NCBI GenBank assembly: GCA_030141605.1
Contig: JAQGDQ010001822.1
Span: 1 to 24,220 of the forward strand
Source of the DNA: Tubiluchus corallicola
Lineage: Eukaryota; Animalia; Priapulida
Direction: 5' to 3'
Length of the DNA: 24,220 bases
Numbering within the stretch: the first letter of the stretch is position 1; each line of letters opens with the position of its first letter. Shown piece by piece: positions 14,301-20,300 of this stretch. The position numbers and the translations under genes are program-made. The notes beneath the pieces are model-generated. The model was given only the letters and a program-made list of their open reading frames with translations. It searched no databases and had not been told where the DNA came from.

Positions 14301-17300
14301 TGCTAGTGGTCAAGTAGCAGAAGGGGAAGCCACATCAGTTTGTGTTTCTCGTCATCACATGACTTTGTCGTCTCCGAAGCATGTAACTTGACCGAGACTT
14401 TTCTATGGGTTAGAAACGCATCGCTATACATTACTTACATAAGGAATAATCCTTACTGAACGCCGTATTTCACTGTAGGCGAATTCGGGAGTCGATATTC
14501 TCCATGGTACTGTCTCAAGCCGTCGTACTGGTTCCCAAGTGATAAAGCACAAAGGAGTGGTTTGACAGAAGCCGATGAGTTGAGTTCAAATGATGCATCA
14601 ACTACGGATGACATTGAACCCATTTCTGAGGAACTTTTCGGGAAAGAATCAATCAGGTAAATTTTCACTCATCATATCCGAAAGAAGTTCGCAAAGGTAT
14701 TTTCTGAGTTATATTGCCTATCACTGTGTTACTACTATGAAACTATCTGTTTGATTAATTACGCTGCTGTCCCTGTCGGAATCCATTGTGTTGCTGGCTA
14801 TGTCAGTTTTTGCATTTCTATAGTTCACGTTACTTCATACAGATACCATCACATCTTTCTCTTTCTTTCTGTTCTCTATTAACCTTTCTTTCTACTCCTT
14901 TACTGCTCTTTTCTACTACACTCATTCCACATTCATTACTTCATACAGATACCATCACATCTTTCTCTTTCTTTCTATTCTCTATTAACCTTTCTTTCTA
15001 CTCCTTTACTGCTCTTTTCTACTACACTCAATCCACATTCATTACTTCATTCATTACTTCATACAGATACCATCACATCTTTCTCCTTCTTTCTATTCTC
15101 TATTAACCTTTCTTTTCTACTCCTTTACTGCTCTTTTCTATTACACTCAGTCCACATTCATTACTTCATACAGATACCACCACATCTTTCTCTTTTCTTT
15201 CTATTCTCTATTAACCTTTCTTTCTACTCCTTTACTGCTCTTTTCTACTTCACTCAATCCATGTTCATTACTTCATTCATTACTTCATACAGATACCACC
15301 ACATCTTTCTCTTTCTTTCTATTCTCTATTAACCTTTCTTTTCTACTCATTTACTACTCTTTTCTACTACACTCAGTCCACATTCATTACTTCATACAGA
15401 TACCATCACATCTTTCTCTTTCTTTCTATTCTCTATTAACCTTTCTTTTCTACTCATTTACTGCTCTTTTCTATTACACTCAGTCCACATTCATTACTTC
15501 ATACAGATACCACCACATCTTTCTCTTTTCTTTCTATTCTCTATTAACCTTTCTTTCTACTCCTTTACTGCTCTTTTCTACTTCACTCAATCCATGTTCA
15601 TTACTTCATTCATTACTTCATACAGATACCACCACATCTTTCTCTTTCTTTCTATTCTCTATTAACCTTTCTTTCTACTCCTTTACTGCTCTTTTCTATA
15701 ACACTCAGTCCACATTCATTACTTCATACAGATACCACCACATCTTTCTCTTTCTTTCTATTCTCTATTAACCTTTCTTTCTACTCCTTTACTGCTCTTT
15801 TCTATTACACTCAGTCCACATTCATTACTTCATACAGATACCACCACATCTTTCTCTTTTCTTTCTATTCTCTATTAACCTTTCTTTCTACTCCTTTACT
15901 GCTCTTTTCTATTACACTCAATCCACATTCATTACTTCATTCATTACTTCATACAGATACCATCACATCTTTCTCTTTCTTTCTATTCTCTATTAACCTT
16001 TCTTTCTACTCCTTTACTGCTCTTTTCTACTACACTCAATCCACATTCATTACTTCATTCATTACTTCATACAGATACCATCACATCTTTCTCTTTCTTT
16101 CTATACTCTATTAACCTTTCTTTTCTACTCCTTTACTGCTCTTTTCTACTACACTCAGTCCACATTCATTGCTTCATACAGATACCATCACATCTTTCTC
16201 TTTCTTTCTATTCTCTATTAACCTTTCTTTTCTACTCCTTTACTGCTCTTTTCTACTACACTCAGTCCACATTCATTACTTCATACAGATACCATCACAT
16301 CTTTCTCTTTCTTTCTATTCTCTATTAACCTTTCTTTCTACTCCTTTACTGCTCTTTTCTACTACACTCAATCCACATTCATTACTTCATACAGATACCA
16401 TCACATCTTTCTCTTTCTTTCTATTCTCTATTAACCTTTCTTTCTACTCCTTTACTGCTCTTTTCTATTACACTCAGTCCACATTCATTTGGGGTGCTCT
16501 GAACAAGTAATTACTTCTTGAGTACCCCACGGGTCATTTGCGGCTTGGCATCTTGTGCACATAATAATAAATATATTATTAAATACTTAAATGTACAATG
16601 CTGTAATGATCGTTGTGGATATATTTAATAAGTAAATAAATTTAATAAGTAAATAAATAACAAAAAAAACAATTTTAAAGGTTGCTGACAATTAGTAAAA
16701 CTGACATGTCATTTCTAATTTTTAAAGCTTGTAAAATTTCTTTAATGAGTGAATGTTGTACGAAAAAAATGTAATCAGTAATTATAGTAGCTTGAGTGAA
16801 CTAACACCTGCAAGTGAATATAGCAACGCTTGTTAGTATCGAATTAAGACCCGATATTGTCATTTGTAGTTGCGTAGTGGTCATGTAAATCAAAGTCCAT
16901 AGTTCAAACCCAGACTTGTTCCTGATTTTTTCACACTTTCTTCCTGTTAGTCAAATTTTGGTTTCAAGTTTCAATAATTTTGTGTTGATACCATCACTGT
17001 AACATTAAATTTTGAAATTTGGCATTAAATTCACAAAGTGAGTGAAATCTTCACATTAGCGCTTGCAAAAATGACAATCTTACTAAATGGTTCTTCTTCT
17101 TCCCAGCTTTTCCCTATTCGGGGGTCGCCGTTGTGAATGAGTCTTCTCCACGCATTCCTGTTGTTGACCATCTCTTCATTTATGTCTTCCCTTCTCGCAT
17201 GATCTTCACCGACTTCTTTTCAGGTGTCCATACCATCGCAATCTTGCAAGGCTTCCACTACTTTTACTGTTCCTCTGATATTATTATTTCTAATTTTATC

Positions 17301-20300
17301 TCTTCTCGTTATTCCCACCATCCATCTCAACATCCTCATCTCCACCACACCCATTTTCTTCTCTTCGGTCTTCTATAGAGAAGCTGCTTCCAGCCCATAG
17401 ATTAGAGCGGGTCTGACCACTTCTTTGTGGACTTTCCCTTTAAGTCTCACCGACTCATTCATAGAAGGTTTTGGCGCAGTTTTTACAGGCGGATGCCCTT
17501 CCTGACTCTAACCCTCCCTATTTATCCGGGCTTGGGACCAGCACTGAGTTGAGCTGGTTTGCCCCCCCCCCCAGTGGCTAGGTTAATCTTACTGAATACT
17601 TAACAGTTGTTACTACTCTTACAAGGTGGCAGAGCTGCCATTACTGTCCGCTGCCCTATTAAATTTTATATTTCAGTTTTCTATAAACACAGTATTATAT
17701 GTGTTTTTTCAAATGTAAATTTGTGGTAATTAAATGGATCAGGACGTCATTGTAGTTGAACCTCAGAATTGTTCCTAGGAAATAAGTCTTCACAGTTCCA
17801 ATGATTGATGATGATCGTGAAAAGGTCAAAGGTTAAGTGTACCAGACAATGCATTTGTGTACGCTTGACAATGCCTCGCAGCCCATGCTATTGTAATAGT
17901 AACAGTTTTAACAGCTAGCTAGAACTTTATTTAGTTCATTTTTTCTTGTTCACAAGCAAGATCCTTCTAGTAAATCACTCTATGCACAGCTTCATGCACA
18001 ATTATGTAAAGTACACATGCTTTAGTAACGTAAAACAACTGACATTAATCTACTGATGCGACAGCCGGCTTTGCTTTACCCACATGTCGTGTGACAGTTG
18101 TAGTCAAGATGCACTGCTGTGGTACACTTAACATTTGACTTACAATAACTGCGCGTACGCACAACGAAACTGTGAAAATGCTCATTGTTTTAGAGTTTGA
18201 GACTTGACAGTTACTGTAAACAATTTTGTTGTTTTTCAGTTTTTTCAAGGATTTGTAGTCTTCAGAACTATTTGTAACTATGACCTGTTTACTTATTTAC
18301 AATCAAACAAGCTTCTTCAATTTGACATACATATATTTACATTACCTCTGAATGTTTATTCCGTTTAGAAAGTATTTGTTATGCCATTATCACGCCGTTG
18401 TTTGTTTTAGAATATCCAATGTCGTGCGGGTTTTCAAAGGCGACGTGAGAGCGGTGGACGGATTCTCTCTTGACATTTATCCTAACCAAATAACAGCATT
18501 ACTCGGTCATAACGGAGCTGGTAAAACCACATTGGTTAACATCTTAACCGGTGTGATCCTGCCCAACAAAGGTTTGTGTCATCTTAATAAAGCAGTACAT
18601 TCCTTGTTATTTTTTGTGTTTTGTTTCTCTCAGAAGGCTCGTAGAGAAAACCAGAAAACACTTCATCAAATTAAACTAGTTTGTTAAGCGAGAATTCTAC
18701 AACACAAAAGTATGAAGGAACGCGAAATGTTTACAGTAAACGTGATAATCTGGAAAACGTTCAAGTATGCCATACAGCTGTCAACATTGTGAGGGAATTC
18801 TAGGTGTATTATTATTCTGTCACATTTGTATAGTATGCAAATTAATTATGTGTGTGCTTGCATAGCAAAATCGTCCACAAGTTGGCAATTAAGCTTTTCT
18901 AGTTATTCACATATCCTAATTCTCCATTTCATTTGGATCATTTTGATACCAAGTTCATCACTCTGTGTTATTTCTGAGTTGAGATAATTCACATTGAAGT
19001 TTAGGTGCAGGCTACGCACTGAAAAATGTAATTTTGAGAAAAAAGCTGTTAAAGTCAGCCATTTTTTTTTTGCATTTCTACAAAACACTTAGCAACCAAA
19101 CAAAAGTTGGCTGCTATGGACTTTACAAGAGCAAATTGAAGTTATGTTTAAATACAGTAGATGGCTCTTCCTGATGAAGATCTGGGCTTGCAATTTTACT
19201 TGTCAAAAAACCCGAAGTAAAATTGCTGCTTCCATGAGCTACAATCAGAGTTAGAAAATACAAGTTTTTTTTTACAAATGCAGTACTAGTTTCTAGACAG
19301 AAATGTGGGTAAGGAGTTATAAAATTAGATTTTTAGTATTTTTTGGACATTTTCCTGATAATTTGATGCTAGAATATAAAAGTCCAATATATTTAACATT
19401 TGTTTTCATAAAAAATAAAAAATCGACATTTGACCAAATTTTTGGTGCTTTCTACTGTGAAGCATCATAACGTAGTTTTAACTAAACCGACTTATGGACG
19501 GTTTTGGTTTGCAAGCACACAAATGTTACAATATATCATATGTATTTCTATACAAGTGTGGTTATATTGTGTTTTGAATGGGTTTGTCTGTTGCCTATTA
19601 ACACATGGTTATTGAATGTTTCCAGGTTGCTACCAACTTTTGGTTATTACGGAAAACCTTAACAGCAAATCAAGAACTTCAATCGAAAGACAAAAGATCA
19701 AAACTGGTTAAAAAGGCTTCAAAGAAAATAGTTATAGGCCTATATTGTTAGCTCTTCGTTAATTTTGTCCCTATATGTGATTAGATCTTACTGTGCACTT
19801 GGATTCAATGTTTCCAGGTTACTAGCAACTTGTGGTTACTACGGAAATTTTTTCTCCTTCTTAAATTGTTATAACAAGAGTTCATGTAATAGCAATTTGA
19901 GGAACTTCATGAAAATTCACGTTTTTTTTCAGGTAGTGTTACCATTGATGGTTTAGATGTGTCAGTTGCCAGCGAACTGCATCAAATCCGCTCCAGGGCC
20001 GGAGTTTGCCCTCAGGAAAACGTGCTGTTTGATTATTTGACTTGCAAAGATCATTTGATAGTTGCTGCTAAATTAAAGGGCGTGTCACCTAAGAGAGTAA
20101 AAAGACAGGTGAATATCTTGGTGATTCGACACTTAGCTTCTTGCTCAAAAACACTATAATCCCCTTTGAAGATATACGCTGTGCTACCTTCTTATAAAAA
20201 AATCTCCAACTACATAATTGTGTAGCTTGTATCGTTTAATCTGAAAACAAATCAGATAATTTTATATAATTTTGTTCAATTTTGCGGCGAAATCTAAACC

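What the first reader, a model, noticed from the sequence alone, without database searches (positions are those of the whole stretch)
17091..17597. SINE-like retroelement whose 5' end is set by a twister ribozyme cleavage site
Seen: a ~495-nt minus-strand element made of a complete twister core, a short RTE 5' segment, an internally deleted RTE ORF2 C-terminus and a (GAA)n tail. The core has P2 CCUA/UAGG, a long P3, P4 with the UCCCAAGC loop, AUAAA and GAGGG. The element begins at AACCUAGCC (17584), the A just 3' of the twister U^A scissile bond, and the next base belongs to the TSD. No Pol III boxes are visible. Known: twisters occur at the 5' ends of RTE retrotransposons (Schistosoma Perere-3), and bipartite non-autonomous RTE derivatives exist. 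Inference: this is a promoter-less family cut out of host read-through transcripts by its own ribozyme and mobilised in trans by an RTE reverse transcriptase. Two copies in 24 kb suggest high copy number; it may be an undescribed family.
Basis: partly seen in the sequence, partly recalled or inferred. Interest (0 to 1): 0.88.

Follow-up and report, generated by a model that had tools for sequence, protein, structure and literature searches.

The report
Twister-headed shortened RTE retrotransposon
This is one copy of an abundant, roughly 500-base, non-coding jumping element of an animal genome whose copies begin at the cut site of a predicted self-cutting RNA (twister ribozyme), so it likely trims its own RNA out of longer transcripts and likely borrows a full-length retrotransposon's enzyme to spread: a new combination of parts already known separately.

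Summary
17091-17584 (-) is a 494-nt element: twister-P1 core (Rfam E 1.5e-9, 53.4 bits, below the 67.2 family cut-off because P1 is missing), short 5' segment, deleted RTE ORF C-terminus, (GAA)4, with a 13-nt TSD abutting the scissile position. A 96%-identical copy lies at 4239-4734. In four DNA runs (two samples) 61 of 73 listed 5' loose ends fall at the cleavage site or one base beyond, with mixed flanks; an empty allele and an undeleted RTE 3' end are present. In metagenome loci of other animals, related twister-headed short elements start at the same base (60 of 109) and share both ends with an intact 1,079-codon RTE. Cleavage, lack of a promoter and trans-mobilisation are inferred; no RNA data. 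It is not a Pol III SINE but a bipartite non-autonomous RTE (SIDE-like) with a Perere-3-type T-variant twister. Each part is published; the combination was not found in my searches, and this scan noted similar elements in two other genomes. Extra: 5'-junction stutters of the element's own head recur (18 of 66 sister copies) and in copy A rebuild a full P1 stem.

The parts
17091..17584 (-). Copy B: 494-nt twister-headed, internally deleted RTE element
   Evidence: (depth rises and falls at these ends)
17508..17584 (-). Twister core from A+1 (P2, L2, P3, P4/L4, GAGGG, P1 3' strand); predicted scissile bond between 17585 and 17584
   Evidence: RF03160, E 1.5e-9; compensatory pairs in P2, P3, P4 across families
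17463..17507 (-). Rest of the retained RTE 5' segment up to an ATG at 17462; its first 25 nt are conserved with a full-length twister-RTE of another animal (L033)
17121..17462 (-). Remnant of the RTE ORF C-terminus (residues 840-986 of P0014), EN and RT domains absent, two further internal deletions
17104..17129 (-). Predicted 3' stem-loop before the tail (likely RT recognition site; inferred)
   Evidence: MFE fold only, no significance test
17091..17102 (-). (GAA)4 tail
17585..17597 (-). 5' copy of copy B's 13-nt TSD; supplies U-1
17076..17088 (-). 3' copy of copy B's TSD (1 mismatch; 2 extra bases between it and the tail)
4239..4734 (-). Copy A of the element, 96% identical to B (469 of 488 aligned bases)
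4735..4740 (-). Six extra bases between TSD and A+1 in copy A; they repeat the element's first bases plus a T and give a 4-bp P1 and U-1
   Evidence: a contig of run X1 spans it without differences (record 7)
4741..4757 (-). 5' copy of copy A's 17-nt exact TSD
3856..4238 (-). About 385 nt of unrelated sequence carried inside copy A's TSD (likely 3' transduction)
   Evidence: empty allele
3792..3855 (-). Second, 5'-truncated RTE 3' end (about 60 nt, with GAA tail) that closes the composite insertion
3775..3791 (-). 3' copy of copy A's TSD
18409..18573 (+). Exon of the host ABCA-family transporter gene downstream of the intron that holds copy B (upstream exon about 14478-14657)

Best explanation
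It is a high-copy, non-coding deletion derivative of an RTE-clade LINE that keeps the parent's 5' twister ribozyme and 3' end, and whose RNA is likely cut at the twister site from a longer transcript and likely inserted by a full-length RTE's enzyme acting in trans. Shown: twister-like core at the 5' end; copies begin at A+1 with unrelated flanks; TSDs; an empty allele; an RTE C-terminal remnant without EN or RT; an undeleted RTE 3' end in the same runs. Inferred: (1) a source copy is transcribed from an upstream host promoter; (2) the twister folds with whatever flank precedes it as the P1 5' strand and U-1 and cuts N^AA, leaving a 5'-OH RNA that starts AACC; (3) the RTE protein binds the 3' stem-loop/(GAA)n and performs target-primed reverse transcription; (4) second-strand joining puts the new TSD against A+1, sometimes with a short repeat of the head. 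Transcripts can run past the tail (copy A carries about 385 nt of extra sequence and a second 3' end). Copy B itself is probably a dead-end or weak donor: antisense to its host gene, no P1, private changes.
For: Rfam hits. 93% of cells paired and both-side changes in P2, P3 and P4 over 10 heads from several families, 0 of 500 shuffles as high; of 73 loose ends listed at 4733-4742, 37 lie at 4734 and 24 at 4735, agreement 0.45-0.66; depth in X1 falls 23,169 to 1,615 to 96 over three 4-base bins, in X3 3,061 to 99 to 24; depth in X1 is 4-9 x 10^5 inside the element and about 150 outside, level across the twister-ORF junction; 29, 26 and 25 contigs leave at the 3' end with mixed flanks; a loose end at 17185 in all four runs reads, by eye, as the undeleted RTE C-terminus matching P0014. 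Empty allele of copy A in X2 (25 of 30 letters match the left flank, compared by eye). Sister families: 60 of 109 start exactly at A+1, conservation 0.76 at +1 against at most 0.41 upstream; 22 of 34 long-enough loci reach a shared 3' end at a median 263 nt; both ends match L033, a twister-headed RTE with a 1,079-codon ORF and YADD. No excess G at -1 (5 of 42 against 17% background), as expected of uncapped RNA. Liu 2021 (PMC8501958): P1-mismatched twisters with any base at -1 cleave in vitro.
Against: No cleavage assay and no RNA data. Both window copies score under the Rfam gathering cut-off. Both are antisense to the ABCA pre-mRNA, so the window shows no host transcript that could release them. 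A partner RTE with the same 5' end was not seen in this genome (no assembly held; loose-end tables are cut, 287 and 14 rows not shown). X1, X2 and X4 are one sample. The covariation comes from other families, chosen by me, and related sequences can beat shuffles. The sister loci were found with a pattern lying 62 nt into the element, so shorter truncated copies are unseen; 13 of 109 begin more than 9 nt inside. TSDs were found in only 12 of 22 sister copies tested, 10 of them within about 5 nt of the cut site.
Confidence: 0.8

Rival explanations
1. The 5' end is a transcription start set by an internal Pol II promoter, and the twister is vestigial or does double duty as promoter and ribozyme (as reported for the trypanosome Pr77 element).
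For: Not excluded: no RNA data. Pr77 activates transcription (PMC8190864, search listing). Copy B lacks P1 and flanks show no selection for P1 in sister copies without head repeats (median 0 kcal/mol against -0.5 background, p 0.89).
Against: Starts coincide with the scissile bond in this family, in sister families and in Perere-3; no excess G at -1; pairing is kept by compensatory changes; a ribozyme at +1 has nothing to cut if transcription starts at +1.
Confidence: 0.12
2. It is a conventional Pol III SINE with an unrecognised small-RNA head.
For: Size, high copy number, LINE-derived tail.
Against: No A/B boxes, no tRNA, no small-RNA family in Rfam other than twister; the head matches the 5' end of a full-length RTE.
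Confidence: 0.02
3. The copies are dead, deleted RTE fragments multiplied at the DNA level, or they spread as retrozyme-like circular RNAs.
For: Ribozyme-bearing retrozymes exist in animals (PMC7229834, search listing).
Against: Different TSDs per copy, dozens of distinct flanks at both ends, an empty allele; a single ribozyme and no tandem monomers.
Confidence: 0.03

Closest known systems
T-variant twister ribozymes at the 5' end of Perere-3 (RTE clade), Schistosoma mansoni (Liu et al. 2021, PMC8501958)
   Same: Twister-P1 core at the element's 5' end; TSD directly beside the AA of the cleavage site; flank supplies the P1 5' strand; no site specificity; short 3' repeats.
   Different: Perere-3 as described is autonomous with an APE/RT ORF; this element is 494 nt and lacks EN and RT; other host; longer P3; the paper reports no short family (its one use of 'non-autonomous' is in the introduction), though 18.6% of its T-variants had no domain downstream.
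Bipartite non-autonomous RTEs (RTESINE1/2, WALLSI3, MAR4_MD, RTE-N2_Lch, Bov-A; Kojima 2018, PMC5786205)
   Same: 5' and 3' parts of an RTE joined by internal deletion; extreme 5' end kept, which the paper links to 5' ribozymes.
   Different: The ribozymes cited there come from a paper on HDV-like ribozymes; here a twister. The 3' part here includes about 340 nt of coding remnant.
R2 SIDEs of Drosophila (Eickbush and Eickbush 2012, PMC3414825)
   Same: Ribozyme plus 3' end, cut from a co-transcript, mobilised in trans.
   Different: SIDEs use the R2 (HDV-like) ribozyme and insert at a fixed 28S rDNA site that guarantees transcription; this family inserts at dispersed sites.
NARTc/RIME of trypanosomes
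   Same: Non-autonomous deletion derivatives of a LINE (named in PMC5786205); parent L1Tc has a 5' ribozyme.
   Different: HDV-like ribozyme within Pr77, which also activates transcription; Ingi/L1Tc lineage.

Membership tests
twister-P1 (Rfam RF03160) | Covariance-model score at or above the gathering cut-off (67.2 bits) | tested here: not met
   53.4 bits (B) and 61.2 bits (A), E 1.5e-9 and 8.9e-12; sister heads 34-60 bits in 18 of 20 loci
twister-P1 (Rfam RF03160) | P2, P4, L4, L2 and L1 consensus bases and the two pseudoknot pairings (pseudoknot assignment recalled, not from a call) | tested here: met
   GC/GC pairs invariant in 10 of 10, CCC/GGG 93% paired
twister-P1 (Rfam RF03160) | P1 stem closing L1 | tested here: not met
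   B: -0.8 kcal/mol; met only in copy A (-6.7) through its six extra bases
twister-P1 (Rfam RF03160) | Self-cleavage at N^AA | not testable with these tools
   needs an in vitro assay
T-variant twister (Liu 2021) | Conserved core, mismatched P1 allowed, AA directly beside the TSD | tested here: met
   definition read
Perere-3 / autonomous RTE | Single APE + RT ORF downstream of the ribozyme | tested here: not met
   only residues 840-986 of 987 present; met in sister locus L033
Bipartite non-autonomous RTE | RTE 5' end joined to RTE 3' end, no RT | tested here: met
   5' part aligns to L033's 5' end, 3' part to RTE proteins at 64-79% identity among the best hits
Bipartite non-autonomous RTE | Retrotransposed as a unit: many copies, TSDs, shared ends | tested here: met
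Bipartite non-autonomous RTE | Autonomous partner in the same genome sharing both ends | tested here: inconclusive
   undeleted 3' end seen in 4 of 4 runs; 5' end not seen; no assembly held
SINE (Pol III head) | tRNA/5S/7SL-derived head with A and B boxes | tested here: not met
R2 SIDE | R2 ribozyme and insertion in 28S rDNA | tested here: not met
   twister, dispersed intronic sites
Named Dfam/Repbase family | Match to a deposited consensus | not testable with these tools
   no TE library is held

The most novel reading that the evidence does not exclude
Twister-headed RTEs and their short parasites are a recurring design across animals, and they rebuild the half of the ribozyme that cleavage removes: during insertion the reverse transcriptase recopies the element's own head, and because the head contains the complement of the P1 3' strand, such stutters restore P1 and U-1 independent of the target site and create the source copies of the family. 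Copy A (P1 -6.7 kcal/mol with the stutter, -0.5 without; 1.4% of random flanks reach it), two sister copies with a 6-pair P1 plus U-1, and the one intact autonomous copy (L033, repeated head, -3.5) fit; against it, strong P1 is no more frequent with a stutter (4 of 18) than without (10 of 48).
Probability: 0.17. Interest if true: 0.72.

Novelty: new variant of a known kind. Interest (0 to 1): 0.44.

Why it matters
It carries the twister-RTE link beyond Schistosoma to at least two other animal sources and gives many eukaryotic twisters a job: trimming retroposon RNA. A young, polymorphic family with many natural P1 variants makes Liu et al.'s proposal, that the insertion site decides which copies can jump again, directly testable; transduced flanks such as copy A's tag the source copies. 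It also shows a natural minimal template (about 260-500 nt) for RTE enzymes.

Tried and rejected
No whole genome is held, so no genome-wide alignment. No RNA holder listed. Exact twister pattern of this family in metagenome contigs: 0 matches. Long-range 5'-3' pairing (lead from earlier finding e1-9260292): not supported, z -0.18 and +1.15 for A and B, and p of at least 0.057 in 7 of 7 sister loci. Selection of target sites for U-1 or P1: not seen in sister copies (T at -1 in 15 of 42 against 37% background; P1 energy like background). Copy A's upstream CCUA as a family-wide P1 strand: rejected, depth there is at single-copy level. A separate TSD for the element part of copy A: none found, so one insertion event is favoured. 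Host taxon: one ABCA exon gave 55-80% identity to many animals and did not resolve it. The bacterial promoter scan is uninformative for an animal. Unconstrained MFE folds recover P3 but only part of the twister fold, as expected with pseudoknots. miRNA-like Rfam hits elsewhere in the window are far below cut-off. Roth 2014 and Ruminski 2011 were not held. Summed contig depth is no copy number: the inside/outside ratio of about 3,000-6,000 in X1 is inflated by overlapping short contigs by up to 31-fold.
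Full report
Observation. Infernal matches twister-P1 at 17508-17589 (53.4 bits, E 1.5e-9) and at 4655-4739 (61.2 bits, E 8.9e-12); both are below the gathering score of 67.2. In copy B the loss sits in P1. The element starts AACC at 17584; 17585 is a T that ends a 13-nt TSD with one mismatch (17585-17597, 17076-17088). 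Copies A and B agree at 469 of 488 aligned bases. No strict A box, exact B box or tRNA was found.

The body is an RTE remnant. The 72-codon stretch behind the head, read with X at its stop, found 92 proteins at E up to 0.001 among 110 candidates, the best at 79% identity, several being 960-990-aa proteins with endonuclease and RT domains. Against one of them (P0014, 987 aa) the element covers residues 840-986 only, with a further gap of about 30 residues and a small frameshifting one. So EN and RT are gone.

Family-wide behaviour. With no assembly held I laid Logan contigs of four DNA runs (X1, X2, X4 one sample; X3 another). Summed depth in X1 is 4-9 x 10^5 inside the element and about 150 outside, and level across the head-ORF junction; after allowing for overlap of short contigs this means hundreds to a few thousand copies (inference). 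At the 3' end 29, 26 and 25 contigs leave with mixed flanks. At the 5' end (laid on copy A), of 73 loose ends listed at 4733-4742, 37 are at 4734 (A+1) and 24 at 4735 (one matching base beyond), agreement 0.45-0.66; 14 rows were not shown. Depth drops to single-copy level within 8 bases. So 5' ends pile up at the predicted cut site and nothing upstream is shared. A loose end at 17185 in all four runs reads by eye as the undeleted RTE C-terminus and matches P0014, so a longer RTE with this 3' end exists in the genome; its 5' end was not seen. Copy B's stop codon, its P4 wobble and its change in the P1 3' strand are private to it (places 17375, 17540, 17507).

Copy A. Its 17-nt exact TSD (4741-4757, 3775-3791) encloses six extra bases, the element, about 385 nt of other sequence and a second 60-nt RTE 3' end. 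A contig of X2 joins the right flank to a sequence matching the left flank at 25 of 30 letters: an empty allele. The block is therefore one recent, polymorphic insertion, best read as 3' transduction or a template switch; either needs an RNA that began at the cut site and ran past the tail (inference). The six extra bases repeat the element's first bases plus T and pair with the P1 3' strand (-6.7 kcal/mol against -0.5 for the TSD alone; 1.4% of 1,839 window flanks reach that). One X3 contig matches eight bases upstream and then has another flank, possibly a second such copy (mismatches not shown).

Context. Exons of an ABCA-family gene map on the plus strand around both copies. Both copies are antisense, so this pre-mRNA cannot release them. 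With n = 2 this is no test of orientation bias.

Sister systems. A gapped pattern from the window's head found 120 loci in metagenome contigs (scan stopped at its limit), by their content animal host DNA, with a different 3' part. After dropping 8 duplicates and 3 loci with under 100 nt upstream, 60 of 109 start exactly at A+1, 96 within 9 nt, 13 further in; the commonest base reaches 0.76 at +1 and at most 0.41 upstream. 18 of 20 loci scanned match twister-P1. Of 34 loci with enough DNA, 22 reach a common 3' end at a median 263 nt and 12 of these gave a TSD. L033 is a twister-headed RTE with a 1,079-codon ORF containing YADD, and seven short elements tested match both its ends at 76-88%. Across 10 heads that I chose from these families and the window, 93% of cells pair, with both-side changes in P2, P3 and P4. 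Flanks show no excess U or G at -1 and no selection for P1. Tandem repeats of the first 16-23 nt stand at the 5' junction in 18 of 66 full-length copies (0 of 1,919 controls); they give slightly stronger P1 on average (median -2.3 against 0, p 0.002, copies not independent, mostly G-U pairs) but strong P1 is equally frequent with and without (4 of 18, 10 of 48).

Mechanism. Most likely: read-through transcription, twister cleavage to a 5'-OH AACC end, recognition of the 3' end by an RTE protein in trans, TPRT, TSD against A+1. Anatomy, end positions, TSDs and polymorphism are shown; cleavage, promoter-lessness and trans-mobilisation are inferred. An internal promoter remains a rival (0.12).

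What is known. Liu 2021 (PMC8501958; read parts 3-6 of 9 and passages; supplements not opened, and they list T-variants of other species that may include such families): twister variants head Perere-3, TSDs abut the AA, the TSD forms P1, and variants with any base at -1 cleave. Kojima 2018 (PMC5786205; passages): bipartite non-autonomous RTEs usually keep the 5' end, perhaps because of ribozymes. Eickbush 2012 (PMC3414825; abstract) and 2013 (PMC3774820; passages): SIDEs; variable 5' junctions after cleavage at the element end; the tandem duplications described there are of target sequence. Weinberg 2019 (PMC6765202; passages): RTEs lack promoters and are freed by ribozymes. Six answered literature searches listed no paper on a twister-headed non-autonomous RTE, and none on head stutters restoring P1; subscription papers and Repbase/Dfam were not searchable. 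Two earlier notes of this scan describe like elements in other genomes; they are unchecked AI notes and no support.

Verdict. Real, well supported, and a new variant of a known kind: a SIDE-like RTE derivative with a T-variant twister. Interest 0.44; the stutter idea would be worth more but has only partial support.

Noticed in passing
window 3775-4757: Copy A is a composite insertion (element + about 385 nt + second RTE 3' end) inside one 17-nt TSD, with an empty allele in run X2; likely 3' transduction.
   Followed up: partly
L014, L018, L024, L027, L031, L036, L051, L055, L104, L117, L118 and others; L033: Sister elements often carry one to three tandem repeats of their first 16-23 nt at the 5' junction, ending mostly in the P3 loop.
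   Followed up: partly
L033 (match at 664-690, +): Full-length twister-headed RTE with an intact 1,079-codon ORF, sharing both ends with an abundant 260-nt family in those assemblies.
   Followed up: partly
window 17462 and 4610 (-): The ATG at the end of the 5' segment is in frame with the RTE remnant for about 80 codons; B's stop and A's frameshift are private. May be chance (1 in 3).
   Followed up: partly
L113: Another twister head with a 5' segment closer to the window's family, followed after an ATG by what looks like a mid-ORF RTE segment: a further deletion derivative.
   Followed up: no
window 17086-17550, run X3: Depth is about 13 times higher at the 3' end than near the head in X3 but level in X1; more truncated copies or library bias.
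   Followed up: no
window 10800-11240 and 24127-24184: Element with terminal inverted repeats and an 8-nt direct flank repeat, hAT-MITE-like by eye; start of a second copy near the window end.
   Followed up: no
window 5671-6049 and 17791-18186: Two copies of another roughly 380-nt interspersed repeat in opposite orientation, 82-92% alike.
   Followed up: no
window 7710-8150, 11590-12090, 12969-14230, 14830-16490: Intronic minisatellites with 74-, 18-, 46- and about 106-nt units; a unit of the last recurs at 22500.
   Followed up: no
window 8592-8734, 12306-12448, 18614-18756: A 143-nt repeat in three copies, each shortly behind an exon.
   Followed up: no
window 6685-6885 and 22100-22209: Long hairpins that give sub-threshold miRNA-family hits; likely small palindromic elements.
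   Followed up: no
window 2262-22042 (+): Exons of the first half of an ABCA5-like transporter gene of an invertebrate-type animal.
   Followed up: partly
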